Positions 25,923 to 64,000 of a DNA stretch of 64,000 nt are shown piece by piece. Location of the stretch: the NCBI RefSeq assembly GCF_964204865.1, contig NC_135250.1, positions 27,714,001 to 27,778,000 of the forward strand, written 5' to 3'. The position numbers and the translations under genes are program-made. Below the pieces are notes generated by a model. The model was not told the DNA's origin and ran no database searches. It worked only from the letters and a program-made list of their open reading frames with translations. Origin of the DNA: Styela clava. Lineage: Eukaryota. Each line of letters starts with the position of its first letter. Position 1 is the stretch's first letter.

Positions 25923-28476
25923 TTATTTGAAAGCGAACTTTTCCAAATCTTCGGCTGCAGAATCACCTTGGCTTCCTGTGTAATAAAATGTCAATTATGA
26001 GTTACTTGTTCGACGATTACTGTGTTTGGCCAGTTCCTACCCTAAAACACATTCCCAGTAGGAGAAATAATTTCTTTTATTGATATATATATATAAATAT
26101 TCACACTATACGTTCATTTCGCCATTTGTTTTCGACATTGTAAATGCTAAGAATTTTTTAATTAAAGGAGTATTCCCAAAAGTTCGGGATCAAATGAGAT
26201 GGGCACTCGCTTCTTGGAGTTTTTAACTGCATATTGCAGGTGATATATATACCCCTATCTCTTAGCTAAAATTATTCATCCCTGCAAATTAGTGGTATAA
26301 AAAGCATTGTTTTATTTCAATTTAACGTGAAAAAACAGAGTATAATAAAATGAATCTATTCCTACATATACATCAGTTAGACCCCGACATACATCAGTTA
26401 TAATTGATAATTGGTGCCTCAAGGGCGTATAAATAATGTCTTAAATACCAGCTAGTAACAATAGATTTAATTCCCAGTGTTTCTAGTCAATATTCGTGAG
26501 CGCAGGTTGTTGTTTATCAAATTCAGCGGAATGTTCTTACCTTTCCCAACCCATTTCATCGAACGGGCGGGGGCTTTACGGGTAGAAAGTGTTCTTATGA
26601 TGAACTTATCATTCTCATGTGTTTGAAATATGCGCCTGCATGGACGATAAAACTTTGTTCTTGTTCTTTTGCTGAAAAGAAAAACGCTATGAAATACAAA
26701 TATTGTTCAGTGTAGAAAACATAATGTAATCTGTCGTACAAAGTGCCGAATTCACGCTTAGCCTAGGGCAGGGGTCACTAAATTTTTTTGACCACGGCCG
26801 GGGTATGACTCAAAACTGTATTTAAACGGGATGGATGAATATTTTTGTCAGTGCAGTACAATAAAGTCACAAAAGTTGGGAAATCCGTTCAATTTATTCA
26901 ACAATATATATTCTACATTTCTGAAGACTCGAATATTAAATTCTATCTAATTCGCGGAATATAGATCGAGAACATCCTAGGAAACAAATATATATACAAG
27001 ATTTCTATATCTAGACAAATATCCTGAGTTTAGCTGTTATCAAAACGTTGCTGTCATGAATTAGGAATGTTACAAAATCCGCTTTTTTGCGCAAAAAAAT
27101 GTTCGCATCACGTCTGCTGAGTACCGTTACGCCGTGTTGGAATACCGCTCCTAAAAAACGACTACGCACTGCCTGCTGTAGCTTGGAATTCCATGAAATT
27201 TTAACACAATTTAGATAAATTAAACAACTATTATCTATCTATTTAATTTTTTGCATTAGCGCATAAATTTCCCAACATTCGGAGCTTTTAAAAAGTACGC
27301 TCCAGTTATACGTAGTGCAAATTAATTATATTGTCCATGGACACCAATAAAATATTTATTTGCGACGTTCTTTCAGTGGTGTCAATGACCGTTGTCAGAA
27401 TAAAATCCTGAAATAGTCTCAATATTCTATAGATGTGACGCACATGGAAAGATTAGTGATTGATATGTGTTCTTTTTTCTTATTTATTACAGTTCTTATC
27501 AAATAAGTAATACAATCCTTATGGAAAAAATTGACCTGTCGGGCGGTTCTAAAATTCCGATATCTCCGTTGGTAACTTGGTATGAAGTTTAATTTTATTG
27601 TAACATACCTTACGCTTTCAGATTACAGTACTGTTAGCGCAAAATGCACATTCCGCGTTCATTTTAGCCCAATGAACGTAAACAGTTTCGTCGAAAGTGT
27701 CTGAGCGGATGCGAAAATGCCCATTATTACGTCACTTTTGTTGCAGTAGTTTGGTGATCCCTGGCCTAGGGAATCCACGCCTTCTAACTTGTAAAAGTTA
27801 GTTCCAGAATAGAGCCGTTTCAAAATGTCACAAATCTGATATTTGTTCAATGGCCCAGTCAAATTAAAAATTCTTGTTTCAAGTTATTTACCGTTTGAGA
27901 GATTAAAACAAAAAACGTCCAATAAATAAATTTGTCTAATTTGGAGAAATTCTCTTCTCAATCATAAAATCGGAATATTCCATTATAAATCTACAGTTTT
28001 TGGACACCCCGATCGTTTTGCATTTTTGGACACCTTGTTGAAAAGTCGCTTTTCTCTTTGATTACTGAGCCAAAAATTTTAAAATTTCATTTTTAAAATT
28101 TTCAGTTGTTAAAGATGAATTTTCTCTCTAGAAGGCTATTTACTTTTATTCTTTTCAAATATTTCCGTTAGCTCTGTGAGATTCGCCGCCGTAGGACGAC
28201 TTCACCAATAAGTCAATGCACGTGAAACAAATAACTGGCTAATTAATCCAATACCCGACATGGACTTATGGCAGGACGAGTGGCCTTGGTTCGCCATATG
28301 ATTAAGTGACCTTATCGACTTTCCTCGACTTATGTAAAAACTTAACCTATCCTATTTCTAATAACTCAATAAACATTTTTAGTATTAGTAATTTTGTCAA
28401 ATATATCGACCTACCTCCACCACCATGAAGTTGGTGTTTTGATTAGAAGTCCAACAATGCAAATGAGTAAAATCAT
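25923..28476 (-). CDS. Secreted host-defence-like prepropeptide, copy C (81 aa from second Met)
   Basis: Exons 28415-28476, 26541-26671, 25923-25975. Protein MILLICIVGLLIKTPTS-WWWSKRTRTKFYRPCRRIFQTHENDKFIIRTLSTRKAPARSMKWVGKGSQGDSAAEDLEKFAFK*. The ancestral ATG is now TTG and the TATA box is altered. Intron 1 carries a 1-kb hAT MITE. Confidence 0.68.
26769..27763. mobile_element. hAT (Charlie-like) MITE in intron 1 of copy C
   Basis: TIRs CAGGGGTCACTAAA and TTTGGTGATCCCTG. Perfect 8-bp TSD GCCTAGGG at 26761-26768 and 27764-27771. Paralogous introns lack it. Confidence 0.88.
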
Positions 28477-30007
28477 TCTGTGCAATATGAATTATATCCA
28501 CCTGTATAAGCTAGTTGTATGGTGCTAAACAAGGACATGAAAAAATATTATAGTTTTATCACTGCCCTACCTCAGTAATATTTATTAAACCTAATCGAAT
28601 TATAATCGGGACCAAATGGCCGAATCGCGTTATTTTTTTTCATCTGTTTTGGTTTCCTTGCCTAAAGTTGGTATTGTGACCACAAGGTTTGGCTCAATTT
28701 GCTTCTAAGAAATCACAGGCGCCGTCTCGCCAAGGTTGTAATATATTCACTAGCATATGCTTGACAAAAAATTCCGGTATTTTCAAAACATAGCATTGGT
28801 TAATTTAATAAGTCATTTTCCAATGACATATGGCGCTGTTTGAGCGCGTCTCCGTCCTATTTGCAGGATATTTGTAGGCATGTTTACTCTATTTTTAATA
28901 GAATATCTTTAAAAGAATAAAAATTGCTATCATTGCGGGCAATGCTATCGATATATGCTTGTCGCTATTTAGCAACAAGGGTAGCATGCAGCATAATGAA
29001 GGGGAACAACAACAACAACGGATTTTCCAATTTATAGCGCTCACTGCACCAATGGTAATAATTTAGGTGTCTTGATGATGATAAACCATTTTACACGGAC
29101 ATATGGGGGCTGGTTGATCGGCCATTCAAAGCAAGGTGGGAAATATCAATGGTATTTTTGGATGTCTTGATGTCTGATAAAGCCTTTTCCACTGACATAT
29201 GGGCGCTGATTCGAAGCAAGGTGGGAAATACCAATGGTATTTTGGATGTCTTGATGATGATAAAACATTTTCAACTGACATATGGGCGCCTGTTGATCGC
29301 GTCATTGTCGTATTTGTAGGCATTTTTACTTCATTTTTTATTAGAATATTTTTGATAGAATATAATTTGGATGGAATATTCTACGGGCAATGCTTACAAC
29401 ATGTTTTTTTCTCTATTTAACAACAAGGGCGGCATGCACTATAATGAAGGGTTACAACAACACATATTCTTCAATAAAATACGATAATCACAAAAGAGCT
29501 TCATCCACAAACTGTTCAAATTCGAATATTTGTTAACCAGCCATTACATGATTAATCAGTCACTGGAGCAAATATGATGAATCATGCTGTTTATTCACTT
29601 TGTGATTATAACATATTTCTGCGTCCCAGTTTGCGTTAATAAGTGATTGTACAAGAATTATTCAGAAAATTGGAATTATTCCCAGAATAAGTTTCATATG
29701 GAAACCGATCCTTGAGCAAAAGAAAACTCATTCATACGTCCCTTACATGCAAATATAATATACAAATATAAGTACAAATATTAAACAAATATAAGTACAA
29801 ATTGAAGCCTAACTATGTATAAAAATATCTAGGAAAAAAATAGTGTTACATTCAAAAGTTTTTGAAAATTTAGTTCGAAAAGATTTTGTGAAATATAAAA
29901 AACGCGTATACATCGGTTGGGCTAAATATTAAGATGCACGCTCCTCGTTTTCCGTAGTTTTATTGTTAAATTAAAGTGTTTTTGAGATAGGATGAATGCT
30001 ATTGAAT

Positions 30008-30125
30008 CTGCGCTTCGCTTCGTTCTCTTACCCCATTTCGTCCTCTTGCTGCGGTTCATGTTGCGGACAAATTTTCGAGCTTGTCGATACTAACTGACGA
30101 TGATATGCCAGTTTATGGAGAAATC
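30008..30125 (-). pseudogene. Orphan remnant of the X1-type cytoplasmic-tail exon
   Basis: After a tgttttAG acceptor it reads (R)FLHKLAYHRQLVSTSSKICPQHEPQQEDEMG*, homologous to X1 RFYHKLANYRQLLSTTSKMSLDSEPRQEKE. Its flank 29290-30005 matches the X1 3' flank 44730-45465. Confidence 0.7.
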
Positions 30126-30289
30126 TAAAACACAAGAGCCAGAGATAAAGGCCAGCTAAACGAAATCCGAACGATTAGTAGTCTACAGCAGGGCTCTCCA
30201 AACTAGGGGCCGCGGCCCCGCACGGGGCCGCGAAACGAATTTCAGGGGCCGCAAGGAGAACCCCTATTTTACACACAAAGTACTACGGG

Positions 30290-31368: not shown

Positions 31369-31467
31369 CTATTGCACATTTTTGGACTCTTGATTCGAAA
31401 TATAATTATATAGCAAAACTGGTGTAAAACAAAAAATCACGATTACTAGTGAATACATCATCATATT

Positions 31468-32174: not shown

Positions 32175-33113
32175 CTGTTGAAACCCATGTCATTGATTGG
32201 GAGGAGGAGGCTGTTCTGGTAAATCCATACCCCTATTCCCGGGATGTGTTTGAAATCTGTACCGGCATGCACGATAAAACGTTTTGAACTTTTTGCTGAA
32301 GAATAAAAACGTTATGATATACAGATATTGTTCATTGTAGAACACATTATGAAGTCTGTCGTGAACAGTGCCTGATTTACCCTTAGGCTGGGGGAATCCA
32401 CGCCCTCTAAATTGTAAAGGTTCGTTCCAGAGTATCGCCGGTTTAAAATGTAAAATGTAAATAAAACTAATATTCGTTTTATGTTTTAGTCAGGTTAGGA
32501 ATTCTTGTCATGAAATACTCAACGCTCAAAAAATTAAAACAAAAATACGATCAAATAAATAATTTTGTGAAACGATACTTTTTGAATCTTGATAACCTAA
32601 TCTGCTATTTTAAATTGACAGTTTTTACCGTTATATTGTTATTTTTTATTTTGCCTTAATTTTTTTTTTTAAATATGGAAAAATATATCGGCGATAGAGT
32701 ATCTAAAAATTAGTATATTCATTGCTATATCTGATCTATAAATCCGTTTATTTCTAATAATGCAAAGAACGGGTAATATTGACATCAGGTTTTCTGGTGA
32801 TGTTTTTTTTACATTTTCGATTTTTGGCGGTTTTTAAATTCAACTTGCTATCAAATCTTCTTGTGTGATAATGGTATTATCATGCTTGTAAAATTCCGCG
32901 AGTTAAAATTAAATTTATGACGCCATATAAAGATGTAATTTTTCTGACGTCATTTTCAACCAAGCTATTCGTAAATATAGCGACGGGTTCGACACCAATA
33001 TGAAATTTTTATTACTGGCTTCATAACCCCGATAAGATATCGACCTACCTCCATCATGAAGTTGATGTTTGGATTAGAAGTCCAATGTAAATGAATAAAA
33101 TTATTCTATGCAT
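32175..33113 (-). pseudogene. Prepropeptide family copy D (pseudogene)
   Basis: Exon 1 at 33049-33113 reads MHRIILFIYIGLLIQTSTS*W (TGG changed to TGA). Exon 2 at 32175-32295 is 121 nt and frameshifted (KKFKTFYRACRYRFQTHP.../..TRTASSSQSMTWVST). Exon 3 is absent: intron 2 joins upstream-type sequence near 32010. Confidence 0.8.
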
Positions 33114-33678: not shown

Positions 33679-33712
<34 letters not shown>

Positions 33713-39529: not shown

Positions 39530-42500
39530 TATTATACTGAACAGTACAAGAATAATGTACCTGTGTCACCACGACTCTGTAACCTCCCCATGCATCAGCA
39601 GGTAGTATACAAACAGACATAAATGTGAGCAACAGTATAATGTGAGCAAATACCGCCATTCCTAATTATTGCTCTGCGCTTGTATGCAACGCATAGAGCA
39701 TTTAACAATTACATACTTCCTTTCTACTAATCAACGCATGGGATTCTGTGACGATATTCCGCTCGTTAATTTGCAGATAGGTGAAGAAATATTTCGGATT
39801 TGCGGAAATGCGAGACAAACATACACGCTAACTCAGAAATATGAACACGAACAGAGAATATACTTTTAAACCTATTAGAAATTAGATTAGGTATCTATCG
39901 TAGTGATTTTTATATTTTGACTGATGCATCTGATTAAAATATTCAATAAACTAAACTAGCAAAGCGTTTGTTCTCAACTATTAGTTCTGCTTTGTCAGAT
40001 TTGTAATAATAATACGTTTGTTTTGTTTATTTATCCAAATTAAGATACAATCAGTTTAAAACAGTTTAACACCAAAGACACACTGACTAAAATAAGGACA
40101 ACAAGATTCAAGAACTAACAGCTTCTTTATGACTATCAATGTGTGGTGTGATCGGCCTAAACATGAATAAGTCACACACAATATGTGGACTTACAAAGAA
40201 GCCAATCAAAATGTTGTTTGCTTGACACGTTATAAAAGTCACAACGCATGACAAGATTTATTGGACGTGAGGTGTACATATGGATCGTTCTGTTACTATG
40301 TTGTTTTCAAAATACTTTTCTTATTTTTTTCTTGTTATGATAAATCGCCTTTTTCTTCAATTACTAGACCAATTGCTTTAAAATTTCAAATACCTGCAGA
40401 TTTTATTTTTGCTAACAATAAAAGAGCGTTGAAGTAAATATATAATTTGTGAATGTAAAAAGCGCTTTTCCGACGAAAGTTTGGCAACAAAAATCACGAA
40501 TGGCTGCGCCATGTCAATAAAATTAAAAAGCTTACGTTTTAGCATTATCGTTTTATAATTTCATAAACTTTCTCTTAAATATCATAAGGTCGTAATCAGG
40601 TAAATTTCGATAATTTTGATTCCTGCAAACGAATGTTACATTCAGCATTAAACGTGTGCAATTATTTTTCGTGATTAAGCAACATTATGGAGTCAATTCG
40701 ACATCTCGACCTGATTGTCTGAAGACACTTCCAGAACAGCCAGGTATCTGTTACAATCCCCAATATACCATATTTACCAATTATTCATCGCCGTTAAAGG
40801 TACATTTGGACTTCATACACTGGTGTGATATTTATTCATACGCAATCACGTATGAATAATTGCATTGTAGATATTTTATTATTTCTAATGCCAAGTGAAT
40901 ACGTCATGAAAAATTCGCGATGAATCTACATTTAAATTCGACTCGTTCATACTCAAGTTTCCAATTCCCATTTGAGTTCGAGGTATTCATGATTTAAAAA
41001 TGTGATCTACAGCAACTCGTAGGGTTATCAAGAGGTTAACGATATAAGTCTATCGACTCGAAAATATATAAAACTTTTCAAGCAGGTTTTGATATAGGAT
41101 ACAAAATTCTATGATCAGAATAGTCTTTGTCAGTGATAATGTACTAGAAAGACAATACCCATAAAAATGAACAAATCGGAAAGACCAGAGGTCTTCAGGT
41201 CATGCGCTACGTCCTACGACATGGAATTGATTGGTAACAGGTTCATATTTCAAGCTCAATTACTCAAAAATGATGCAAATATTAAAAACTTTCATGTGTT
41301 ACTTAATGAATGTTGATGTTCAAAACATTTAATTGGCTTTAAAATAATTTTAATGGAATATTTATTGAATAATTTTATTGGAAAAATGAAACATATAATA
41401 GAACAAATAGTAAACCTACATTTGTTTAGTAATAGTTGGTATAGTGGTGAGATCGTTTGGCTCAACGTACACCTTAGAATTCACAGGCACCGTCAAAACT
41501 TGGTTGTAAAATATACAGCAGGCTTCAGTATGTTTTCAGCATATTATTCTTAAGCAAGTTTCCGGTATAGCACAAACATAGCAGCTCGCTGTGTATAAGC
41601 AAGGTTGGAAATGCCAACGGTAATTTAGGCGTTTGCAAAATTACAGGTTTCGAGATGCCGCATGATGTCGTTGGGAATATATCATGGCACGGTCTCTTCT
41701 ACTTTATTTCCCCGAAAATAAGACCTAGCCCGAATTATAAAATCGATTTTAATATAAGCCCCCCGACGACAAATGTGCAAAAAAATTTCATCATTTGACG
41801 TCGAATTTTTAAGCAAACAAACTTCAGCCCAAATGCCTCATGTGTATTTATTATATCTGTATTCGTATTAAACCCCTCATCTCAGGCAATGTTCAAACAA
41901 TTTCCTACATTTGGGACAAATAACTTATGAACTTTCCCAATATCTGACTTGGACCGGTCTTGAGAGGCTTGAGAGGCCGTGGTTAGTTATATATTCATTC
42001 TGGCTTGGTGACTTCCTATTCTTGTGATACGTTTGAGTTAGTCTTAGGTCTTATGATTAAAGATTATAATTTGCCCGATGTTTTTTTGCTGGCTGATTTT
42101 ATAATCAAGCCTGGGCTTTGTCTGATTGTTATCAAGTCAATTCAGAAAGCCTGGACCGGCTTGCTACTGTAGTTGGTGACGTGAATGTCTTCCATTACAT
42201 TCCTTCTAGACATTGTATGATGTAAATTTTCTTCTTATTTGATATCTATGGAATGTGCGTTTGAATAGCGAATGTTGCAGTAATTTTCAAGATGTTTTAC
42301 TGGTTGGTTTTAAAATCGAGCCTGGGCTGTAGCTGTATATTTATTATCAAGTCAACTCGTAAAGCCTGGACGGACATGCATGCTATTGGATTTGATGAGC
42401 TGATTGTCTTCCCTTACATTTCTTCTAGGCATTATCTATGCAATTTGCGTTCAAATGCCGAACGTTTCAGTAATGAATGTATTTCCAAATTTAAACGTTA

Positions 42501-42642: not shown

Positions 42643-43909
42643 TTATTCAAAAGAAAAATCTTTCCAATCTTCGTCTGCAGTATCACTTTGGACATCCCAC
42701 CAAGATAGGCCGAGACCGTCGTCACCTGTGTAAATAAACGTCAATCATTGGGACTCGCTACTTCGTACTTCGACTCCGAAGTGATATATAAGTAACACTG
42801 CTTCAATCTCTCAGCTAAAATTATTTATCACTGTTCATTATTCATGTGACTTTTCATTGTTTTAATTTAACTAAACAAATCTGTTCCGCCCCGGACCCGA
42901 CATCCCGGGAGTAAAATTGATACTTTATATAAATATAAACAATGTCATCAACACCAGCTAGCAACAACAGACTTTAAATCGAATCTAAATGTCTGGTAAA
43001 AATAAAATATGGCATTTTCTGAGCGACTGTTGTCAATTATTAAATTTAGCCGTTTGTTATTACCTTTTACATCCCATCCCATTAAACGGGTATAGGTTGT
43101 CACGGGGGGTCCGCTGAAAAATAAAAACATTTTGAAATACAGATATATAATGCTCGTTTTTAGAACACATAATGAAGTCTGTCGTGGACAGTGTCGGATT
43201 TAAAACATAACAACCTGGTGGCCCACACCTTCTAAATTGTAAAGGTTCCTTCCAGAATGAAGCCGGTTTAAAATGTTACAAAATGATATTTGTTTAATGT
43301 TTTAGTCAAGTTTTTAATTCTTGTCCCAAATTATTGAGCGTTCAGAAAATTGAAACAAAAATATGGCCAAATGAATAAATTTGTCTAATTTTGAGAACGC
43401 CCCTTCTTTGATCTTATTAACGTTACTTGCTATTATAAAATCACAGTTCACCGTCATTTTTTTGAAAAGATAAGAGAATATCTCAGCAACAACCAATCTA
43501 GGAATTAGTATATTTAAATTTAATACTATTTCTATTGCACCACTGATTACCCTGCTCGGGATCGCACGTTCAATTCCCTCGGGGAATAAATTTGTACAAG
43601 TGGATTGCTGGATTTCTCGCCGTCATAGCGTCGTGCGGTTCATCAACAAGTCCATATTCATAAAACAAATAAATGCCTGGCTGATTAAATAATACCCGAC
43701 ATGGACAGGTAACCAGACGAGTGGCGTGGTTCGTCATATGCCTGAGCCGCCTTTAGGAAATACAGCAATGGAATCAACAAAAATATCAATACTTCAAATA
43801 ATGGTCTCATTAATGGTCACCCCGATGAGATATCGACCTACCTAAACCATAAATTTGATGTTCGGATTAGAAGTCCAACAATGCAAATGAGTAAAATCCT
43901 TCCATGCAT
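42643..43909 (-). CDS. Secreted prepropeptide, copy E (66 aa, 3 exons; near-neutral core)
   Basis: Exons 43842-43909, 43064-43113, 42643-42725. Protein MHGRILLICIVGLLIRTSNL-WFSGPPVTTYTRLMGWDVKGDDGLGLSWWDVQSDTADEDWKDFSFE*. Confidence 0.75.
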
Positions 43910-45757
43910 TATGTAGATTATGATCTATAAGTTCTTGCAAAAGAATCCACAACTGATTTATCTATACTTTTATAAGCTAGACGTAAGTCGCTAAACAAGA
44001 ACATGAAAAATTACAATAGTTTTACTACTGCTTTTACCAATTTAATTATTTATTTAATATTTTATAAATATTCATTTATTATTATTATTATTTGTTTATT
44101 TAATTTATCAATTTTTTGGTAATGATAATTTAGGTGACTTGATGATGATAAACTATCTTCCACTGATATATGGGCGCTGTTTGAGCGATGATTCAAAGCA
44201 AGGTGGAAATTTTAAAGGCAATTAAGAGGTCTTGATGATGATAAACCATTTTCCACTGACATATGGGCGCTGGTGGATCGCGCCTTCGTCGTATTTGTAC
44301 GTAATTTGTAGGCATTTATACTCAATTTTTATTAGATGATAGTAATTGATGGATCAAAATTTGGTGTGTATTGGATATGCTATCGTCATATAATTTTTTC
44401 GCTATTTAATAGCAACAATGATGCAGTTTAATAAAGGGGAACAACAACATCGTATTTTCATATCATAGCAGCTCGCTGCGTATTCCAAGCAAGATGGGAA
44501 ATACCAATGATTATTAAGTTGACTTAATGGTGATAAATCATTTTCCACTGACATATGGTGCCTGATTCGAAGCAATGAGGGAAATATCAATGGTATTTTG
44601 GGTGACTTAATGACGATAAAACATTTTCAACTGACATATGGACGCTGATTCGAAGCAAGGTGGGAAATATCAATGGTATTTTGGGTGACTTAATGATGAT
44701 AAAACATTTTCAACTGACATATGGGCGCCTGTTGATCGCGTCATCGTCGTATTTGTAGGCATTTTTACTTCATTTTTTATTAGAATATTTTCGATAGAAT
44801 ATAATTTGGATTGAATATTCTACGGGCAATGCTTACAATATGTTTTTTTCTCTATTTAACAACAAGGGTGGCATGCAATATAATGAAGAGTTACAACAGC
44901 ACATATTCTTCAATAAAATACGATAATCACAAAAGAGCTTCACCCAAAAACAGTTCAAATTTGAATATTTGTTATGGCCATAACCAGCCATTATATGATT
45001 AATCAGTCACTTGAGCAAATATGATGAATCATGCTGTTCATTCACTTTGTGATTATGACATATTTCTGCGTCACAATTTGCGTTAATAAGTGATTGTACA
45101 AGAATTACTCTGAAAATTGGAATCATTCCCAGAATAAGTTTCTTTAAAGGTTCATATGGAAACCGATCCTTGAACAAAAGAAAACTCATTTATACGTCAC
45201 TTACATGCAAATATAATATACAAATATAAGTACAAATAATAAGCAAATATAAGTACAAATTAAAGTCTAACTATGTATAAAAAATATTTAGGAAAAAAAT
45301 AGTGTTACATTCAAAAGTTTTTGAAAATTTAGTTTGAAAAGATTTTGTGAAATATGAAAAACGCGTATACATCGGTTGGGCTAAATATTAAGATGCACGC
45401 TTCTCGTTTTCCGTAGTTGTATTGGTAAATTAAAGTGTTTTTGAGATAGGATGAATGCTATTGAATGATAAAATACAGTATATATAAGTCACTTATATAA
45501 CACGCGAAAAGAAAACCTAGATATATGTACAATAGTGTTCAAAGAATAAAATAATAATTTGATAAAAGAAAACAGTGTAACAGATCAAAGTCTTCAGCAT
45601 TCTGTAAATTGATAAAATTTGCTGTTACGCTAGGAACACTATATATTATAAGCCCGTTTTGTGTTGTCCGAAGTAATAATCAAACCTGAGGGTTTTGAGA
45701 CAAAATGAATGTATCTACATATTATAAAGCACGTTGTCTATCATTTCTCTTTCCGAC

Positions 45758-48509
45758 TCAGCGTTTTTTTGAAGTTTTTTCGTTTTTGTTTACCACGCTA
45801 TACATATCTTCAATGTTTTCGGAGTTGTTTGATTCCTGGGCCTCGTCGTTCTCTTGCTGCAATTCGTTTTCTTGCTGCACTTCGTTCTCTTGCTGCGCTT
45901 CCTTCTCTTGCCGCGGTTCAGAATCCAGAGACATTTTTGAGGTTGTAGACAATAATTGACGATAGTTTGCCAGTTTGTGATAAAATCTGAAACACATATG
46001 ACAGAGATAACAAAGAGCTTAGATAAGAACGAGTTGTACTACTGTTTGGACTTCAATATTTGGCTTGAAAGGGGTTCAAAAGTGGGAACTGAACTATACT
46101 TTCTACCATTTATAAAAGGGTCATTTACCAAGTTACTACAATTTCCTTAAAAGAATTCAGCCCTACATGTAAAAACTTGAGACTGAAACCATGCAGAATT
46201 GATAAAAAATCAAGAATTGCAGATTACCTCAATGTTAGGGTGATTATGAGAAGTACTGCTAAACCAAGCAAGACTGCCGGAACAATTATCAAAATTGATT
46301 TATCCTTTGTATTACAGTTTCCATCATAACCATTGGAATCCCTCATTGTTGCCGTAATCGGAATTGAGGTTATATCACTCTGTGTATTGTTTATCAAATA
46401 ACCAGATTGAGTTGCCGTCGGTTCATTCTCTGAATATGTTTTGTGATAGTTAGATGTGGTGGGAACGCTATTCCTTTCCGTAGTTTGTTGAAGTTCTACA
46501 AATAGGTACAGTTCACTTATTATTGGCGGGAACCCTCTTTAAATTCAAGCGTATATATCAAAAATCGCCCCTCAATTAAAGATTTTTATAAGAAATTATG
46601 GTATCAAATATTTGAAAATTTTCATTTGAAAAGTGCGTTTGTTTCGTTAAAACTAAAATTACATTCCCTAATGTATAAGAGATTATTGACTAGTTGAGTA
46701 CAGTGTGCTAATGTACTGTATATTTAAAATAATGTATATACTGTACTATTCTACAGAATTAGCCTATTATAATATCGTTGCAGCTCAGCAAGCATACAAA
46801 TTACTTCATTAAGTAATATTAGGTTTACACTTTTTGCAGTTATAATATTTTCTCCTTAAGATTACTGCAGAATATAATACGAAGAATTTAAGTTGAAGAG
46901 ACTTATTAAATTCGCTTATACTTAATTTGTTGCTTTTACCTGTGTTGTTTAATATCCGGTGTATTAACAGGATTTTGAATTCTTGAAGTTCATGAGAGTA
47001 ACCATCCCCTGTCTTATATGTCAAACTAATTGGAAAAACATTATCTTCAATATTATGCTGGTATATTCCATTACATCCGTCAGTAATAGATTTATCAGAT
47101 ACAGCTTTTGAGGCGAAAAGGAAACAGTCGTTGAGTTTGGAATCACACAGTTCTGTATCCACTAATCCAGCTAAAACATAGTGATCAATTGATGCCTTTA
47201 CCTGATAGTACATGTAATACCCACTATAATTTACCATATACGGCACTAATGTGAGTATCGGGTCCTAATTTCAAATATTATATCCGATATATTGGTTACC
47301 TACGTAGAGATCTCGGCAAAAAACAGCACAACTGAGACATTTGTAATTCTTAATTAACGCAACAGGAAATCATAAAGACAACTATCAAACTACTAAAAAC
47401 TAGATAATATGCAACGTATAACACATAAACATGTTTCGAGTGAAATAACCCCATGGTGGAATAAAAAAACTAGAACACAAATTAATCGAAACAAGCCTTG
47501 AAGGTGGATACAAAACTATATTTTTATAATTAATAGAAGTTTTTTAATTGTTACAAATTAACACGAAAAATGTATTCACTTTGATTGCCAGTAATTTTCA
47601 GAGATCCAATGCACTGACTGTTTTGATAGAGTTTATTTTCAGTAATATTAACTAACAAGGCGGTGTTAACAGATATGCAACTATCGGCTTTTAATTCCCA
47701 AATAGTGTGAATATCCCCTGTTCTTCTGAAAAATACAAATTGAAAATAACTATTTAAACTATATTTTCATGTTCATATACGGCTGGTTGATCATGAAATT
47801 TCATTTCATCATTTTTAAAAGTTTATCAAAAAAAAATTTTCCTATATTTTACATCGTTCTGTTAATTATTATTCATGTTAAAATTATTTTTTATTGGATT
47901 ATATATATGCTTTATTTGTATCAATTTTCATTAAAACCTAATAAAAAATAGAGAAATGTTTTACCTTACACTTGAGCCTTGTTCAGGTTTAGAACATAAA
48001 TCAAGGTTAAACTGACTCAGAACGATAGATTGGCAAAATGTTGCTGACACTATAAGTGAACAAAAAAGAATATTTGTTGCGTTGAATATTTTTCATAAAG
48101 TCATAAATCCGCTCTAGGGGTGAGTTTCAAATACTCGATAATATTATTGTAGATAACTTCGTTAAGTATACGTACCGTACATTTATTTGCAGTGCAAGTG
48201 TCAATTATCTCACTTATTACTAATTAGTTACGTACTTGTTAATAAAAGTCAAGTTATGAAACGTTGAAGTCCTGAATTTCTAAAAGACTCAAACCCTCGA
48301 TGGATTTCTAGAATTCATATGACTCACTCTAAAAAGTTTCGGAAATATTCAAATTTGAATGAGGCATTTTAACTCAACAAATTCATTCCCTATACGTAGT
48401 GAAGTAAACAACACATATCCACTTATATACAGTTTGAGAGTCACTGATGAAAAATGATACGAACAAATTACTCACCTATAAGTAACAATACCCGCGCAAG
48501 TAAATACAT
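45758..48509 (-). CDS. Type I membrane protein X1 (330 aa): signal peptide, CUB-like ectodomain, Ser/Thr-rich stalk, TM, acidic tail with Tyr motifs
   Basis: Exons 48476-48509, 47965-48049, 47580-47725, 46940-47170, 46228-46495, 45758-45986 total 993 nt in frame with GT-AG sites. Starts MYLLARVLLLIVSATFC-QSIV; TM ILIIVPAVLLGLAVLLIITLTL; tail has QQENE repeats, NYRQL and IEDMYSVVNK. The CUB call is pattern-based only. Confidence 0.8.
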
Positions 48510-51410: not shown

Positions 51411-54400
51411 TCAATATTCAATATCATGATACGGGTGAAAATTTGTCGGTTCGTATCCAGATGATTCGTCAGGTTGTTGCAATGAATCACTCGTCAAGAA
51501 TTTAATCTGATGTCTTGGATCGGGATGAGAGGTCATTGCAGAATGCTCGTGACAAATAGGCAATTCGTATCCACAAGTTTCAGTAGAGCTGGTTGTCTTT
51601 GATTGTTTAATAGTGTTGTTTTCGTAGATTTCGTGTTCACATCCAAACTGAGCTTTTGATATATTTTTCATACTTGGTTTCTCATTATTCCGGATAGCAG
51701 TTGTATTTCTGTTGTTTTTCAACCTAAAATAAAAATAAAGTGTAGATTTTCAAACTTTGGTAGTATCTCAAATTCTTGCAGGTCTAACTATTTTGGCGCC
51801 TAAGCCAGGGTCGGCCAACCTTTTTAGCCGACGGGCCACATTTAGTTTACTAATAATTGCGCGGGCCACTTAACATGGTAATTATTTTCCAGTTTTGCTA
51901 CACTGACTAAAAGTTAATGAAAGAGCATAGAAAACCCTCGCATCAAACTTTCTCAATAATAAGAACAATAAAAAAAACGAAGATACTGTAAAGTCAACAA
52001 AGGTATTTCTACGCGTAGATATTTTGGTGTGAAGTTTGAAAAAATTTCAATATTCGCTGAAATGAACGATGTAGCAATGTGAAGCCAATTTTTCCTATGA
52101 CTGTCAGAAATTAGTGATTTCACAGGGGATTCAAAGCGTAAAGGCAATCCAAAGTTGTCAACTCATCAATATTTTGCTTCATTGCCAAAACATCAAGGAT
52201 TTTATGCATGCACATACCACGCCTAAACACACAGCATTGGCAATTATCATTTATGCCCCCAGCAGGTTTGACCAAGTAATATTTGGTTGGTGCTACATTT
52301 GAACGAGAGACCACGTGATAAAATAAAAGAAGATTGTCTCACAGATGAGATAACGTTAAAGAAGTAGTAGAAGACCCAAGTGTGTAAGCGACTATTTAAG
52401 TATCGATATCTTCCAGTTGGTTTCGATTCCAAATGGTACTCATCGCTCGTTTGAAAGGGCTAGCAGAGCGCATTTCAGGATCATGAACAAATTTTTTGTA
52501 TCAAATCTTTATATTAACTACATCACTTGAAAATTAGAAATTTTTCCCATTTTTTTTTATTTATTTTCGAAAATACAGCGCAGGCCACTCGAAACTCCCC
52601 GGTGGGCCACATGTGGCCCGCGGGCTAAGGTTTGGACGATCCTGGACGAAGCCTTGTAGATACAACAGTGATGACAACATTTCGACAATGCTAACGAAAG
52701 CAAATTCGACAATTAATGAATTTAATGTTTCTTGATTATGATTTTGACCTACTTCTACCGATCCCCGATGTCGTACTAACGACTCAACCACTTTTGAATC
52801 AGCTAAAAATAATACCTCTCTAACACAGTTTATATTATTCAAAATAGAAAATCCATTTTTTTAAAACTGCTTTGTTGATATGTGATACGAATACCCATAT
52901 GGACATCTGAAAGCCGGCAGATTCCGAGAGTTTCCAGATTTGAAAACAATAGATAATAAATTGGATGCTAGCTCTTTTAAATCAATGCCCTTGTCTATGC
53001 AATGTTTATTCAACATCCAATAGTTATTTTAATCTTACCTGGTAACAAGGACAATAATGATGATCACTGCAATAACGAGAAGAATGCCAAGTACAATAGT
53101 GGAGATGACGATGATTTTCCCAGTTTCTTTGCCAAAGTCGTCACTACTTGTACTTGATTTTGTTATTTTCTTAACTCCAGTTTGTTCAAACGACGAAGTT
53201 GTTGCTTTATTTGTGAGCAGGTCCCAGTTGCCTTCAGTAGTTGCATTTTTATCATTTTTAAAATCTGCAAAGTTTATATAATTCACCATATTTGAACAAT
53301 AACATTCATTACAACATTCTCAATTCTGATATTGACGGCATTAAAGTTTAGGAGATAAAATTCACACGAATTTTAATTTTGTTCTATTTAATTTTTTTCT
53401 TAAAATATTTCGTCGATTTTAGTAAAGCCTAAAAATTTGTTTGTCATTTTGTTTATATTATACAAAAGCAATAACTAAGTCGTGCTAATGAATGATGGCT
53501 CAAAAGGCCATAACTATTCAGTTCGGTCTAAATTAGAATAAATTCCTTGTTTATCATTGGCTCATTCGTTTTACCTTTGCTGCTTGTTTTTACATAAATT
53601 GAGGGAATGCGAAAATCTTGGAAATGATCATAGAAACCATCCTCTGTCTTATAAGTAATATTTATTGTAAATATATTGCCTTCAATGATGATATAAGGAA
53701 ATATTCTTGCACATCCGTCAGTAATAGAATCATTAGATACATTTTTGAAGTAAAAATGAAACAGTCGTTTGGTTGGGAATCACGAAGTTCTGTGCTAATT
53801 TGATAAAAAAATTGCTATTTGCTGTACGGAGCATTTTATATAGATAGATTGATAAAAATTGAATACAATAGGGAGAACTTAAGTTGAAAGAGACTAATTA
53901 TATCTGCTTTTACCCGTGTTGTTTAATATCCGGTGTATTAACTGGATTTTGAATTTTTGAAATTCATGAGTGTAACCATCTCCTGTCTTATATGTCAAAT
54001 TAATTGGAAAAACATTATCTCCAATGATATGCTGGTGTATCCTATTACATCCGTCAGTAATAGATTCATCCGATACGGTTTTTGAGGCGAAAAGGAAACA
54101 GTCGTTGAGATTGGAATCACACAGTTCTGTATCCACTAATCCGGCTGAAACATATTGAAATTGGTTCTTTTACATGATAATGCATGATATTACCTCCCAT
54201 AAATTACCATATACGGTATTGTATATTAAATAAAAGTTGTTTAATTGTTACAAATAAACACAAAAAATGTATTCACTTTGATTACCAGTAATTTTCAGAG
54301 ATCCAATGCACTGAGTGTTTTGATTGAGATTATTTTCAATAATTTTAACTATCAAGACGCTGTTAACAGATGTGCAACTATCGGTATTTAATTCCCAAAT

Positions 54401-55200
54401 AGTGTGAATATCCGCTGCTCTTCTGAAAAATACAATTTAAAAATGACTATTTAAACTATATTTTCATGTTCATATACGGCTGGATGATCATGAAACTTCA
54501 TTTCATCATTTTTAAAAAGTTTATCAAAATCAGAATTTTCTTATATTTTACATCATTCTGTTGATTATTATTCATGTTGAAATTATTTTTCATTGTATTG
54601 GATGCTTTATTTGTATCAATTTTTTTTTAATTTAATCAAAGGATATAGAAATGTTTACCTTACACTTGCTCGAAGTTCGGGTTTGGAACAAGAATCAACA
54701 TTAAACTGACCCAGACCGATAGCTTGGTGAAGTATTGCTGTCACTATCGGTGAACAAAAATGAAGATTAGTTACGTTGAAAATTTTTCCCGGAACTGACA
54801 AGCCGTAAATCCGTTTTGAGGGGTTTGAGTTTCGAATACGCGATATATAATATTAAAGATGACTTCGTTAAGTATATGTACAATTATATGCATTTCAAAA
54901 GTCAACTATCTCACTTAGTACTAATTAGTTAGATCCTCGTTAAAAAAAGGCAAGTTATAAAACGTTGAAGTCCCGAATTTCTAAAAGACTAAACCCTCGA
55001 TGAATTTCTATAATTCATATCACTCACTCGTAAAAGTTTTGGAATTATATAAATTTGAAAGAACTCAACGAATTTATTCCTTGTACGTAGTGAAGTAAAC
55101 AACATCTATCCACTGATATACATTATTGAAAATCCCTAATAAAAACGATATGAACAAATTACTCACCGATAAGTGACAATAACCGCGCGAAGAGATGCAT
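51411..55200 (-). CDS. Type I membrane protein X2 (344 aa): same CUB-like ectodomain, different stalk/TM/tail
   Basis: Exons 55167-55200, 54659-54743, 54277-54422, 53914-54144, 53039-53264, 51411-51723 total 1035 nt in frame. Exons 1-4 have the same lengths as in X1 (34/85/146/231). TM IIVISTIVLGILLVIAVIIIIVLV; tail has IYEN, GYELP, GYEPT, PYHDI and a terminal Y. Confidence 0.8.
51806..52644. mobile_element. hAT-like MITE in the last intron of X2
   Basis: Ends CAGGGTCGGCCAA and TTGGACGATCCTG. TSD gcctaagc/gacgaagc (6 of 8). The empty site gcctgagc is in X3 near 58818. Confidence 0.75.
53575..53800 (-). pseudogene. Diverged tandem duplicate of receptor exon 4 (exon 4') inside X2 intron 4
   Basis: Reads TELRDSQPNDCFIFTSK / VSNDSITDGCARIFPYIIIEGNIFTINITYKTEDGFYDHFQDFRIPSIYVKTSSK with a phase-1 GT donor and a 1-nt frameshift in an A-run. 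The counterpart in X3 is at about 59705-59905. Confidence 0.65.
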
Positions 55201-58272: not shown

Positions 58273-58427
58273 ATATGTATGCTCATTTTTTTGTTATACT
58301 CTATTATAGCAAGGTATGACCACTTAATCAGGAATGACTATACTCTATCCTGTTTAGTCACGAGTAGTCAGTGACATGAAGAGGAACTGAAATTAATGTT
58401 CAACAAATAAACAGGAATAAGGTGAAG

Positions 58428-60030
58428 TCAATATTCAATATCATGATACGGGTGAAAATTTGTCGGTTCTTATCCAGATGATCCATCTAGTTGTTGCAAT
58501 GAATCGCTCGTCAAGTATTTAATCTGATCTCTTGGATCGGGATGAGAAGTCATTGCAGAATGCTCGAGACGAATAGGCAATTCGTATCCAGAGGTTGCGG
58601 TTTGTATTGCTATTTGTATTTCACCGTTCACGACGTTGTTCTCATATATTCCGAGATCACATTCAAACTGAGCTTTTGGCATATTTTTCATACTCGGTTT
58701 CATATTCTTCGGGGTAGTAGTTGTATTCCTGTTGTTTTTCATTCTAAAATTAAAAAAAAATGTATGCATTTTCAAGCTTCGGTAGTATCTCAATTTCTTG
58801 CAGGTAGCTATTACGGCGCCTGAGCCTTGGAGATACAACGCTGATGCAAATATTTAAAATATGCACACGGAAGCAAAATAGACAAGAAAGGAATTTGATG
58901 TCTTTTGATACTTGGAATGATTTTGACCCACTGCTACCGATCCCTGTCGTCGTACTAACAACTCAACTATTTTCAAATCAGCCTAAGATAATTAGTCTTC
59001 AACACAGTTGATATTGATCAAAACAGAAAATACAATTTTTAAAACTGCTATGCCGATATGTAATACCAATCATCATATGGGCATCAGAAAGCGGGCAGAG
59101 TCCGAGAAATGTCCATGTTTGTGCAATGTTTATTCAGCATCCAATAGGTATTTGAATCTTACCTGGTAACAAGGACAATAATGATGATCACTGCAACAAC
59201 GAGAAAAATGCCAAGTACAATAGTGGAGATGAAGAAGAATTTCTCATTTTCTTTGCAAAAGTCGTCACTACTTGTAGTTGGTTTTGTTATTTTCTCAACT
59301 CCAGTTTGTTCAAACGACGCAGTTGTGGCTTCATTTGTGAGCAGGTGCCTGTTGCCTTCAGTAGTTGTATTTTTATCATCTTGATGAGCTTAAAATTTCT
59401 ATAATTCACTATATTTAAATAACAACAATCATTACAACATTCACAATTCCAATATTGACAGCATTAACGTTTATGAAATAAAAACCACACGACATTCAAT
59501 TTTAATTTTGTTCTAATTAATTGTTTTTCTAAAATATGTCGGAATTTAATATAGCTCAAAAATGTGCCAAGTTATTTTGTTTATATTGTATAAAAGCAAT
59601 AACTAGGTCTTGCTAATGAATGACCGCTCATAAGATCATAACTATGCAGTTCGATCCAAATTACAATAAATTCCAAATTTATCATTGGCGTATTTGTTTT
59701 AACTTTGTTGCTTGTTTTCGCATAAATTGAGCAAATGCAAAATGATCATAGAAACCATCCGCTGTCCCATAAGTTATATTTATTGTAAATATATTGCCTT
59801 CGATGATATCCTAGCACGTCCATTGGTAATAGAATCATTACATTTATTTTTTGAAGTAAAAAGGAAACAGTTGTTTGTTTGGGAATCACAAAATTCTGTG
59901 CTGATTGAATAAGCATTTTGTACAAATAAATTGATAAACATTGAATACAATACGAAGAACTTAAGTCGAACGAGACTAATTTCTTTTGCATATACCTAAT
60001 TTGTTGCTTTTACCCGTGTTGTTAAATATC
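58428..60030 (-). pseudogene. Receptor X3, 5'-truncated paralog of X2
   Basis: Retains only the last ~18 nt of exon 4 (60014-60030), the stalk/TM exon (about 59163-59389) and the tail exon (58428-58743). The GYEPT Tyr codon has become TAA at 58470-58472. Exons 1-3 are absent. Confidence 0.72.
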
Positions 60031-61240: not shown

Positions 61241-62537
61241 TTATTCAAAAGAAAAATCTTTCAAATCTTCGTCTGCAGTATCACCTTGGACGTTCCACCG
61301 AGATAGGCCGAGACCGTCCACACCTGTGTATATAAACGTCAATCATGTGGACTCGCTATCTCGTACTTCGACTCCAGATTATTAGGTGATATATATGTAA
61401 CACTGCCTCAATCTCGTAGCTAAAATTATTTATCACTGCACATTAATCACGTGAAAAGCATTGTTTCAATTTGATTCAACTTCGAAGTTAAACATCTGAC
61501 TAAACAAATCTGTTCCGCCCCGCACCCCACATCAGGGGAATAAAATTGATACTTTATGGAAATACAAATAAATAATTTAACACCAGCTAGCAACAGCAAC
61601 AGACTCTAAATCCAATCTAAATGTCTGTTAAGAATAAAACAATTGGAATTTCACTGAGCGACTGTTGTCAATTATCACATTTTGCGGATTTTTCTTACCC
61701 TTTACACCCCATTTCCATGGATGGTCTTTGGTTGTCTTTACCCCCCATTTACTTGGACGGTAATAGGTTGTTCTGAAAAATAAAAACGCTATGAAATACA
61801 GATATGGCTCGTTTGTAGAACGCATAATGAAGTCTGTCGTGGACAGTGGCGGATTTAACATTAGCCTGGTGGCCCACACCTTCTAAATTGTAAAGGTTTC
61901 TTCCAGAATGAAGCCGGTAATTAAAATGTTACAAAAATGTTATTTGTTTAATGTTTTAGTCAGGTTTTTAATTCTTGTCCCAAATTATAGAGCGTTCAAA
62001 AAATTGAAACAAAAATATGGCCAAATGGATAAATTTGTCTAATTTTGAGAACGTTCCCTCTTTGATCTTAATAACGTAACTTGCCATATTAAAATCACAG
62101 TTCACAGTTCACCGTAGAATATCTCAGCAACAACGAATCTAGGAATTAGTATATTTATCACTATTACTATCGCGCCACTGATTACCCTGCTTGGGATCGC
62201 AGGTTCGATTCCGTCGGGGAATAAATTTGTACAAGTGGATTGCTGGATTTCTCGCCGTCGTAGCGTCGTACGGTTCATCAACAAGTCCATACCGATAAAA
62301 CAAATAAATGCCTGGCTGATTGAATAATACCCGACATGGACAGGTAACCAGACGAGTGGCGTGGTTCGCCATATGCTTGAGCCTCATTAGGGAAATACAG
62401 CAAGCGAATCAACAAAAATATCAAAACTTTAAATAATGGTCTCATACCCCCGATGAGATATCGACCTACCTATACCATGAAGTTGATGTTCGGATTAGAA
62501 GTCCAACGATGCAAATGAGTAAAATCCTTCCTTGCAT
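61241..62537 (-). CDS. Secreted host-defence-like prepropeptide, copy F (74 aa, 3 exons)
   Basis: Exons 62470-62537, 61699-61772, 61241-61323. Protein MQGRILLICIVGLLIRTSTS-WYRTTYYRPSKWGVKTTKDHPWKWGVKGVDGLGLSRWNVQGDTADEDLKDFSFE*. Exon 2 is visible inside ORF 61628..61879. Confidence 0.82.
62165..62385 (+). mobile_element. Truncated SINE-like repeat in intron 1 of peptide genes
   Basis: Contains a B-box-like GGTTCGATTCC followed by ggattgctgga..tcgccg..taatacccgacatggac..gacgag..ggttcgccatatg. Related copies at about 43535-43752, 28175-28330 and 34872-35150. Confidence 0.5.
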
Positions 62538-62914
62538 TATGTAGATTATGATATATAAGTTCTTGCAAAAGAATCCACAACTGATTTATCTATACTTTTA
62601 TAAGCTAGACGTAAGTCGCTAAACAAGAACATAAAAAATACAAAAGTTTTACTACTGCTTTTACCAAATTAATTATTTATTTATTATTTTATTAATATTT
62701 ATTTATTATTATTATTTATTTATTTAATTTATCAATTTTTGAGTATTTATGTCTAATTTGCCTTACGTTGGAATGATAGCCTGCTTGTTTGGCCTAACGT
62801 GCAACTAAGAAATCACAGGCGCCGTCTCACCAAGGTTGTAATATATATTCATTAGCATATGCTTGACAAAAAATTCCGGAATTTTTAAAACATAGCAGAT
62901 CGCTGCGTATTACA

Positions 62915-63770
62915 AGCAAGATGGAAAATACCAATGGTAATTTAGGTGTCTTGATGATGATAGTCATTTTTCATCGACATATGGGCGCTGTTTTAGCGCT
63001 GATTTAAAGCAACGTGCGAAATATCAATGATATTTTTGGGGTGACTTGATGATGATAAACCATTCTCCACTGACATATGGGCACTGGTTAATCGCTGATT
63101 CAAAGCAAGGTGGGAAATACTGGTGCTAAATCAGGTGTCTTGATAATGATAAGTCATTTTCCACTGACATATGGGCGCTGGTTGATCGCGCCTCCGTCGT
63201 ATTTGTACGTAATTTGTAGGCATTTTCACTAGAACACAAATTTTATTAGAACAATTTTTACAATTTTTATTAGAACATTTATTAATAAATCAAAATTTGG
63301 TGTGGATTGAACATGATACGGCAATGCTATCGTCATATGATTTTTTCGCTATTTAATAGCAACAAGGATGCAGTTTAATAAAGGGGAACAACAACATCGT
63401 ATTTTTATATCACAGCAGCTCGCTGCGTATTCTAAGCAAGATGGGAAATACCAATGATAATTAGGTTGACTTAATGGTGATAAATCATTTTCCACTGACA
63501 TATGGGGGCTGATTCGAAGCGAGGTTGGAAATATCAAAGGTATTTTGGGTGACTTAATGACGATAAAACATTTAAAACTGTCATATGGACGCTGATTCGA
63601 AGCAAGGTGGAAAATATCTATGGTATTTTTGGGTGTCTTGATGTCTGATAAAGCATTTTCCACTGACATATGGGCGTTGATTCGAAGCAAGGTGGAAAAT
63701 AACAATGGTATTTTTGTGTGACTTATTGATGATAAAACATTTTCAACTGACATATGGGCGCCTGTTGATC
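62915..63770 (+). repeat. Minisatellite of ~83-95-bp units upstream of copy F
   Basis: Unit gcaaggtgggaaata.caatggta.tttgggtg.cttgatgatgataaa.cattttccactgacatatgggcgctgattcgaa. Paralogous arrays at about 28810-29300 (upstream of C) and 44115-44740 (upstream of E). Confidence 0.85.
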
Positions 63771-64000
63771 GCTTCATCGCCGTATTTGTAGGCATTTTTA
63801 CTTCATTTTTTACTTTCAGTTTTCATTTTCATCACATCACATATTCTTCAATAAAATACGATAATCACAAAAGAGCTTCACCCACAAACAGTTCAAATTC
63901 GAATATTTGTTAACCAGCCATTATATGATTAATCACTCACTGGAGCAAATATGATGAATCATGATGTTTATTCACTTTGTGATTATAACATATTTCTGCG

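What the first reader, a model, noticed from the sequence alone, without database searches (positions are those of the whole stretch)
28415..64000. Peptide gene and receptor gene were duplicated together as a linked head-to-tail unit
Seen: the block [peptide exon 1, minisatellite, X1 3' flank] occurs three times, at about 28400-30125 (C, ending in an orphan X1 tail exon), 43840-45990 (E, followed by intact X1) and 62470-64000 (F, running off the window). All are on the minus strand, with the receptor immediately upstream of the peptide gene. Inference: another X1-type receptor probably lies just beyond 64000. The receptor and peptide may form a co-regulated sensor-effector or ligand-receptor module, or the linkage may be passive.
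Basis: partly seen in the sequence, partly recalled or inferred. Interest (0 to 1): 0.7.

Follow-up and report, generated by a model that had tools for sequence, protein, structure and literature searches.

The report
Shuffled peptide-receptor tandem gene array
In a sea squirt genome, genes for a small secreted peptide (likely antimicrobial) alternate with genes for a membrane receptor along a 220-kb tandem array; neighbouring peptide and receptor genes have different family trees, so the pairing is likely a by-product of duplication rather than a ligand-receptor match.

Summary
The repeated block is real and the prediction holds: a whole X1 receptor lies just past base 64000. The window is the left end of a ~220-kb array (NCBI proteins of this contig are named Styela clava) with 15 three-exon peptide genes (signal-like, cationic aromatic, acidic tail: ascidian antimicrobial-precursor layout; one copy shown spliced) and about 25 single-pass receptor genes whose ectodomain is predicted to be a divergent CUB fold, with two alternative tyrosine-motif tails. 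Eleven of 15 peptide genes have X1 tail plus 3' flank upstream. The minisatellite grew from an element of the X1 3' flank, also kept upstream of receptor-less peptides A and B, so the junction is older than the peptide family. But pairs are not inherited intact: distances correlate on each side of the minisatellite and not across it, each side's tree rejects the other's clades (AU p<=1.3e-6), and dead peptides sit beside whole receptors and vice versa. Best reading: co-amplification by unequal crossing-over, RCCX-like, with no pair-specific coupling. Shared regulation or an SL-resolved operon stays open; cognate ligand-receptor pairing is unlikely. The two undescribed, fast-evolving families are the more interesting result.

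The parts
19035..20274 (-). Peptide gene A (exons 20274-20207, 19965-19850, 19105-19035), predicted 84-aa precursor; no X1 gene upstream
   Evidence: splicing predicted by homology
21508..21640 (-). Single copy of the X1-3'-flank element (source of the minisatellite) upstream of A
   Evidence: weak (E 1.3e-3) with a profile of peptide-free X1 flanks
22469..23932 (-). Peptide gene B (23932-23862, 23166-23093, 22539-22469), predicted 71 aa; no X1 gene upstream
25122..25326 (-). Single copy of the X1-3'-flank element upstream of B
   Evidence: E 2.1e-5
25923..28485 (-). Peptide gene C (28485-28415, 26671-26541, 25975-25923); family start codon reads TTG, in-frame ATG three codons on
28673..29330 (-). 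Element plus short 83-bp minisatellite of unit C
29457..30148 (-). X1 3' flank (29457-30007) and orphan, internally deleted X1 tail exon (30012-30148) of unit C; rest of the receptor absent
32175..33113 (-). Peptide pseudogene D (stop in exon 1, exon 3 missing)
41440..41656 (-). Third single copy of the X1-3'-flank element, between E and D
   Evidence: E 1.6e-19
42643..43909 (-). Peptide gene E (43909-43842, 43113-43064, 42725-42643), 66 aa; both introns spliced in RNA contigs
43991..44030 (-). Pyrimidine tract and AG 81 nt upstream of the ATG of E; acceptor-like site present in 15 of 15 peptide copies
   Evidence: function inferred
44121..44770 (-). 83-bp minisatellite of unit E; the seam across which genealogies decouple
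44900..45757 (-). X1 3' flank of unit E
45758..48509 (-). X1 receptor, six exons (48509-48476, 48049-47965, 47725-47589, 47170-46940, 46495-46228, 45986-45758): signal, CUB-fold domain, S/T stalk, TM, tail with YSVV; an extra base ends the frame before the family's second tyrosine motif; equals NCBI LOC144425764 but for three residues at one junction
51411..55200 (-). X2 receptor (55200-55167, 54743-54659, 54422-54286, 54144-53914, 53264-53039, 51723-51411): same ectodomain, other stalk/TM/tail with 5-7 tyrosines; decayed duplicate exon at 53821-53575
   Evidence: NCBI model P0002 of another X2 copy also joins ectodomain to this TM and tail
58428..60030 (-). 5'-truncated X2 remnant
61241..62537 (-). 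Peptide gene F (62537-62470, 61772-61699, 61323-61241), predicted 74 aa
62772..64000 (-). Element, minisatellite and X1 3' flank of unit F; continues past the window into a whole X1 gene (G000:C1:27778617-27781546)

Best explanation
Two unrelated gene families, a secreted peptide (likely antimicrobial) and a single-pass receptor with a predicted CUB fold, are interleaved in one tandem array, likely because a founder peptide gene sat in the 3' flank of an X1 receptor gene and the whole stretch was then amplified by unequal crossing-over. Shown: the array, the gene models, splicing of one peptide, the origin of the minisatellite from the X1 flank, discordant trees on the two sides of the minisatellite, uncoupled gene loss. 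Inferred steps: (1) founder peptide gene downstream of X1; (2) local duplications gave A, B, D, which kept at most the last ~200 nt of the flank; (3) a duplication joined a peptide 3' spacer to the last intron of the end-copy X2 and set the large unit; (4) repeated crossover or conversion, notably in the minisatellite and among ectodomain exons, swapped partners; (5) each family then went through birth and death on its own. Both families likely serve innate defence, but no peptide is tied to its neighbouring receptor.
For: Array: 15 peptide exon-1 copies, all on C1 27.734-27.945 Mb; minisatellite only there; 10 X1, 15 X2, 2 fragments, 9 X2-tail remnants. Founding breakpoint: spacer 3' of peptide O matches the end copy from 235273 on, 83% over 1599 nt; same joint in G. 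Flank origin: a profile built only from the two peptide-free X1 flanks hits the minisatellite units and the elements at B, A and 41.4 kb (alignment). Decoupling, 10 units: Mantel rho between neighbouring segments 0.75, 0.68 (peptide side), -0.17 across the minisatellite (p 0.72), 0.67, 0.38, 0.64 (receptor side); peptide vs X1 ectodomain rho -0.16 to 0.29, none significant, n=9; peptide vs downstream receptor 0.13-0.48, none significant, n=9. AU tests reject E+J and H+I+N on the peptide side, E+F and the seven-copy G clade on the receptor side (p 1.3e-6 to 1e-67). Loss, 11 units: both whole 4, X1 whole/peptide broken 3, X1 broken/peptide whole 4, both broken 0 (my classes; Fisher p 0.24). Receptors without peptides: about six genes 91-130 kb to the left and relatives on three other large contigs.
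Against: The order X1-flank-minisatellite-peptide is kept in 11 of 15 peptide genes and the flank element in 14 of 15 (D lies 8 kb from the nearest copy), which selection on a regulatory link would also give. The distal flank is as alike among units as any coding segment (mean 0.876 vs 0.79-0.87). A conserved acceptor-like site precedes every peptide ATG. n is only 9-11 units. Ectodomain exons are also decoupled from their own tails (rho -0.21), so the minisatellite is not the only seam. Some frameshifts lie in homopolymers and could be assembly errors. Antimicrobial function rests on layout only; amphipathic excess was seen in 1 of 11 mature regions.
Confidence: 0.65

Rival explanations
1. 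Shared regulation without pair specificity: the X1 3' flank element and its minisatellite expansion act as the peptide's promoter or enhancer, or X1 and the peptide form an SL trans-spliced operon, so that any X1 drives any downstream peptide as a sensor-effector cassette.
For: Element kept upstream of A and B although the receptor is gone; acceptor-like AG 39-83 nt before the ATG in 15 of 15 copies, background 0.06 per 150 nt, its region 0.64-0.70 alike among 8 divergent copies vs 0.31-0.47 in intron 1; RNA contigs begin at 43986 and 43960, close to that AG; Ciona has SL-resolved operons (PMC1488885 passages).
Against: The copies are homologous, not independent. X1 stop to peptide ATG is 1.6-5.0 kb whereas Ciona operons lack intercistronic DNA, so X1 would need a 3' UTR through the minisatellite. 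Whole peptides lie behind broken or absent receptors (A, B, C, H, K, M, O). About half of Ciona genes are trans-spliced without being in operons, so an acceptor alone is ordinary.
Confidence: 0.25
2. Cognate ligand-receptor pairs: each peptide binds the CUB ectodomain of its neighbour, as Botryllus FF and FcoR genes travel in pairs.
For: Secreted-type peptide beside a receptor with a protein-binding fold; both families diverge fast; precedent for pair-wise copy number change in an ascidian (PMC12582321).
Against: Trees of the two sides reject each other's clades; ectodomains of X1 mix with those of X2; 2 of the 3 X1 copies with both tyrosine motifs lie beside broken peptides (I, L); most receptors have no peptide neighbour.
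Confidence: 0.06
3. The array is inflated by mis-assembly of haplotypes.
For: Long repeats of 91-96% identity inside the array.
Against: No repeat of 2 kb or more exceeds 95.6% among those listed; the copies carry private exon repeats, insertions and breaks; four runs of one other study hold 62-71% of the words of 41.7-49.3 kb.
Confidence: 0.03

Closest known systems
Human RCCX modules (RP-C4-CYP21-TNX)
   Same: Unrelated neighbouring genes duplicated together in tandem by non-allelic recombination, with gene conversion, chimeras and pseudogenes (PMC2193198, PMC3595039: search listing and start of abstracts only).
   Different: Far more units here (12), a minisatellite as seam, other gene families; copy-number variation between individuals not tested.
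Botryllus Fester family / Fester co-receptor pairs
   Same: Ascidian multigene cluster in which two families are interleaved and type I receptors carry tyrosine motifs; the FcoR core-2 motif [A/D]VYxxV resembles X1's [A/D]MYSVV (PMC12582321 abstract and passages).
   Different: FF/FcoR are both Ig-superfamily membrane proteins, head-to-head, co-expressed and inherited as pairs; here CUB fold plus a secreted peptide, head-to-tail, partners shuffled.
Ascidian linear antimicrobial peptide precursors (Ci-MAM, styelins, clavanins, botryllin)
   Same: 50-100 aa; conserved signal, cationic middle, anionic C-terminal piece that starts at Asp (PMC7387483 passages).
   Different: No sequence match found, no KHK motif, middle made of 12-residue Thr/Tyr/Trp/Lys repeats with Pro and Gly, not an amphipathic helix in 10 of 11.
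CUB-domain membrane proteins (Kremen1, neuropilin, Neto2, TSG-6 CUB)
   Same: Fold: Z 11.3, rmsd 2.4 A over 104 residues to Kremen1; the first 18 rows are CUB-containing chains.
   Different: 6-13% identity, no Pfam CUB hit in 12 of 12 members; one domain only, on an S/T stalk, in a lineage-limited family.
Paired immune receptors (KIR, LILR, Siglec, PILR; recalled, no call)
   Same: Near-identical ectodomains on two different cytoplasmic tails, tandem cluster, exchange of ectodomain exons, frequent pseudogenes.
   Different: No canonical ITIM and no charged TM residue in the array receptors; opposite signalling not shown.

Membership tests
Ascidian cationic AMP precursor | 50-100 aa with N-terminal signal peptide | tested here: met
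   66-84 aa in 11 of 11 whole models; hydrophobic 20-21 aa leader judged by eye, no signal-peptide predictor run
Ascidian cationic AMP precursor | Cationic mature region | tested here: met
   Net +4 to +12 in 10 of 11; E is -2
Ascidian cationic AMP precursor | Anionic C-terminal propiece | tested here: met
   Last 13 residues -5 to -7 in 9 of 10, -2 in C
Ascidian cationic AMP precursor (alpha-helical class) | Amphipathic alpha-helix | tested here: not met
   Helical moment above shuffles only in C (99th percentile); 16th-67th in the other 10
Ascidian cationic AMP precursor | Antimicrobial activity, haemocyte expression | not testable with these tools
   Needs assay
Styelin/botryllin | KHK motif and >30% identity (PMC9966394) | tested here: not met
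   KHK in 0 of 11; no direct alignment to styelin sequences was run
CUB domain | CUB beta-sandwich fold | tested here: met
   Model pLDDT 79-95 over residues 21-160; VIA Z 9.2-11.3 to 18 CUB chains; Foldseek TSG-6 CUB E 2.6e-4
CUB domain | Pfam CUB profile match | tested here: not met
   No CUB family among the 25 of 37 families shown for 12 members, none for P0001; Atlas CUB rows 0.80-0.83, lead only
CUB domain | Calcium-binding acidic triad | not tested
   Not examined
Paired ITIM/ITAM receptors | Same ectodomain on two tail types | tested here: met
Paired ITIM/ITAM receptors | Canonical ITIM, or charged TM residue for an adaptor | tested here: not met
   No [SIVL]xYxx[ILV] in the tails of 13 of 13 array models; TM windows uncharged
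Paired ITIM/ITAM receptors | Opposite signalling | not testable with these tools
   Needs phosphopeptide pull-down or reporter cells
Botryllus FF/FcoR cognate pairs | Head-to-head Ig-superfamily genes | tested here: not met
   Head-to-tail; CUB fold and peptide
Botryllus FF/FcoR cognate pairs | Partners inherited as fixed pairs | tested here: not met
RCCX-type co-duplicated module | Unrelated neighbours repeated in tandem with independent pseudogenes and chimeras | tested here: met
RCCX-type co-duplicated module | Module number varies between individuals | not tested
   One assembly only
Ciona-type SL operon | Same strand, acceptor site before the downstream ATG | tested here: met
   15 of 15 copies by sequence; use not shown
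Ciona-type SL operon | Upstream poly(A) end abuts the acceptor; SL on the downstream mRNA | tested here: inconclusive
   No poly(A) hexamer at one place in all X1 flanks; contigs cannot show ends

The most novel reading that the evidence does not exclude
A modular defence cassette: each X1 CUB-fold receptor and the peptide gene behind it form one transcription unit resolved by SL trans-splicing, and the variable minisatellite (1 to about 30 units) is both dosage control and the joint at which receptors and effector peptides are recombined into new combinations.
Probability: 0.1. Interest if true: 0.8.

Novelty: new variant of a known kind. Interest (0 to 1): 0.42.

Why it matters
The linkage itself is likely mechanical, and co-duplicated neighbours are known. 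What the locus adds is (a) a peptide family with the ascidian antimicrobial-precursor layout but a new repeat-built middle, with no match in the protein collections searched, in the species that yielded styelins and clavanins; (b) a family of single-CUB receptors with two tyrosine-motif tails that looks like a paired-receptor system built on a fold other than Ig or lectin; (c) a clear case in which a minisatellite born from one gene's 3' flank marks the place where neighbours are swapped. All three are directly testable.

Tried and rejected
Pfam on single exons and ORFs: only BCAR1/p130Cas domains, nothing for peptide or ectodomain. Peptide homologue search: 1 candidate, none scored, lengths 8-84 only; Atlas no usable hit; neither shows novelty. 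Receptor searches: 12 of 1.84 billion representatives; 11 carry the name Styela clava, one unnamed. No RNA holder listed for 41.7-49.3 kb. Reading of X2 as a two-domain receptor rejected: the second exon-4 copy is frameshifted or stopped in most copies. Minisatellite as coding rejected: 83-bp period. In-frame X1-peptide fusion protein rejected: stops lie before the ATG in all three frames in the copies translated. dN/dS: peptide parts 1.2-1.6 with intervals spanning 1, uninformative; ectodomain 0.69 (0.51-0.96). Dispersed-repeat origin of the element: genome searches found none elsewhere for the core, though these searches miss weak copies; the DNA just beyond it is a dispersed repeat. Complex prediction not sent: the report does not claim binding. 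Synteny in other ascidians not possible: no relatives held. Earlier findings of the scan: none. Paper searches listed no study of this locus (listings only; subscription papers and supplements unseen).
Full report
Observation. The window is G000:C1:27714001-27778000. I read 170 kb to the left and 230 kb to the right and mapped modules over 464 kb; coordinates outside 1-64000 below are extended window coordinates. A whole X1 receptor follows at 64.6-67.5 kb, as predicted. The pattern continues to 237 kb. NCBI proteins from this contig are named Styela clava; P0001 matches my exon model of the window's X1 but for three residues at one junction.

Peptide family. There are 15 exon-1 and 14 exon-3 copies in the 504 kb scanned; a genome search found exon 1 only here. 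Each gene has three coding exons: a hydrophobic leader, a middle built from 12-residue repeats rich in Thr, Tyr, Trp and Lys, and an acidic end. Eleven models are whole (A, B, C, E, F, G, H, J, K, M, O; C starts three codons late) and four broken (D, I, L, N). In 2 of 4 runs laid, both of one study, contigs join exactly the predicted exons of E with canonical ends; they differ from E at several places, so they are an allele or a close paralogue. The layout signal-cationic-anionic is that of Ciona, styelin and clavanin precursors (PMC7387483, passages). Net charge of the middle is +4 to +12 in 10 of 11, but only 1 of 11 has a helical moment above shuffles and none has the styelin KHK motif (PMC9966394, passages). 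No relative was found. So it is laid out like an antimicrobial precursor, is not a styelin, and its activity is inferred.

Receptor family. X1 and X2 share four exons (signal and a ~145-residue ectodomain) and differ in stalk, TM and tail. The array holds 10 X1, 15 X2, 2 ectodomain fragments and 9 X2-tail remnants, plus the orphan tail at 30 kb. The ectodomain model is confident and the first 18 rows of a search of 48,161 chains are CUB-containing, best Z 11.3, rmsd 2.4 A, 104 residues (Foldseek agrees more weakly); Pfam does not see it. X1 tails carry YSVV and NVLYNM 25 residues apart, X2 tails five to seven tyrosines including YELP; none is a canonical ITIM. This resembles paired receptors (recalled), untested. 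About six older genes of both tail types lie 91-130 kb to the left without peptides and distant members lie on three other large contigs.

How the link arose. Twelve of 15 peptide genes have the minisatellite upstream, 11 also the X1 flank and tail. The 83-bp unit aligns to a single element in the 3' flank of the two peptide-free X1 genes. A profile built from those two flanks alone finds the minisatellite units and single copies upstream of B (E 2.1e-5), A (E 1.3e-3, weak) and at 41.4 kb (E 1.6e-19); the extra DNA between element and gene in A and B includes a dispersed repeat. Inference: the founder peptide gene already sat behind an X1, and A, B and D lost the receptor. The large unit has a visible breakpoint: the spacer 3' of peptide O runs into the last intron of the end-copy X2 (83% over 1599 nt), and G shows the same joint, which explains the nine tail remnants.

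Are pairs kept? No. Over 10 units, distances in neighbouring segments correlate on the peptide side (rho 0.75, 0.68) and on the receptor side (0.67, 0.38, 0.64) but not across the minisatellite (-0.17, p 0.72). Peptides do not track the X1 ectodomain nor, significantly, the receptor downstream. Trees: E pairs with F on the peptide side but its X1 pairs with J's; H, I, N group on the receptor side but not on the peptide side; all four cross-tests are rejected (AU p 1.3e-6 or lower; groups were taken from the other side's tree). Against a special role of the minisatellite: ectodomain exons are also decoupled from their tails and from each other (-0.21, -0.16) and mix between X1 and X2. Loss is uncoupled: of 11 units, both whole 4, receptor whole and peptide broken 3, the reverse 4, both broken 0 (Fisher p 0.24; 'whole' for X1 means ectodomain and TM in frame; only unit F has both genes complete with both tyrosine motifs). 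Unit K was left out of ectodomain comparisons because exons 1-3 are missing; C, O, A, B, D were left out of the upstream tests for want of an X1 gene.

What stays open. All 15 peptide copies have a pyrimidine tract and AG 39-83 nt before the ATG, more conserved than intron DNA, and RNA contigs begin near it. That points to SL trans-splicing or an upstream non-coding exon. Ciona operons are resolved this way but lack intercistronic DNA, and about half of Ciona genes are trans-spliced (PMC1488885, passages); here 1.6-5.0 kb separate the coding ends and no poly(A) signal is shared by all flanks. Read-through and co-expression are untested. Retention of the element by A and B fits a promoter or enhancer role.

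Comparison. Closest in behaviour: human RCCX modules (PMC2193198, PMC3595039; listing and start of abstract only). Closest in lineage: Botryllus FF/FcoR pairs (PMC12582321; abstract and passages), which are head-to-head, Ig-type and kept as pairs, all unlike this locus. A review of marine invertebrate peptides (PMC10608444, passages) names no such family among tunicate peptides in the passages seen. Searches listed no paper on the locus; unseen papers and supplements may.

Verdict. Observation confirmed and extended; interpretation partly supported. Passive co-amplification with partner shuffling 0.65, shared regulation or operon 0.25, cognate ligand-receptor 0.06, assembly artefact 0.03. New variant of a known kind; interest 0.42, mostly for the two undescribed families.

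Noticed in passing
window 7502-9928 (-): Intronless BCAR1/p130Cas-family gene (SH3, serine-rich, CAS_C), about 9 kb from the array.
   Followed up: partly
window 10269-11377: 221-bp inverted repeats at 96% identity around a 63/132-bp tandem array: foldback-like element.
   Followed up: no
L022-L026 (91-130 kb left of the window): Older, peptide-free cluster of about six receptors of both tail types, two X1 genes facing each other.
   Followed up: partly
G000:C6:18.26-18.49 Mb and two other large contigs: Distant family members (22-26% identity to P0001) that keep YSV[VI] and N[EQ]LY tail motifs about 21-25 residues apart.
   Followed up: partly
window 45758-45800 and L009: The window's X1 and its sister copy at 146 kb share the same extra base that removes the last tyrosine motif; another X1 ends at a stop after YSVV: repeated tail shortening.
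   Followed up: partly
window 47589: Exon 3 donor reads GC in the window's X1 and GT in the other copies; NCBI's model joins three residues later.
   Followed up: no
L002 (unit G) and units H, M: Minisatellite length ranges from about 1-4 units to about 30 between units; its core resembles a Su(H)/RBP-J or kappaB-like site (recalled, untested).
   Followed up: no
window 30160-30813: Two frames that look by eye like the end of a LINE reverse transcriptase, at the point where the X1 of unit C is cut off; no Pfam hit.
   Followed up: partly
peptide exon 1, e.g. window 43842-43909: Signal exon 0.82-0.90 alike at DNA level among 8 divergent copies vs 0.31-0.47 for intron 1, while exon 2 changes by 36-bp repeats.
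   Followed up: partly
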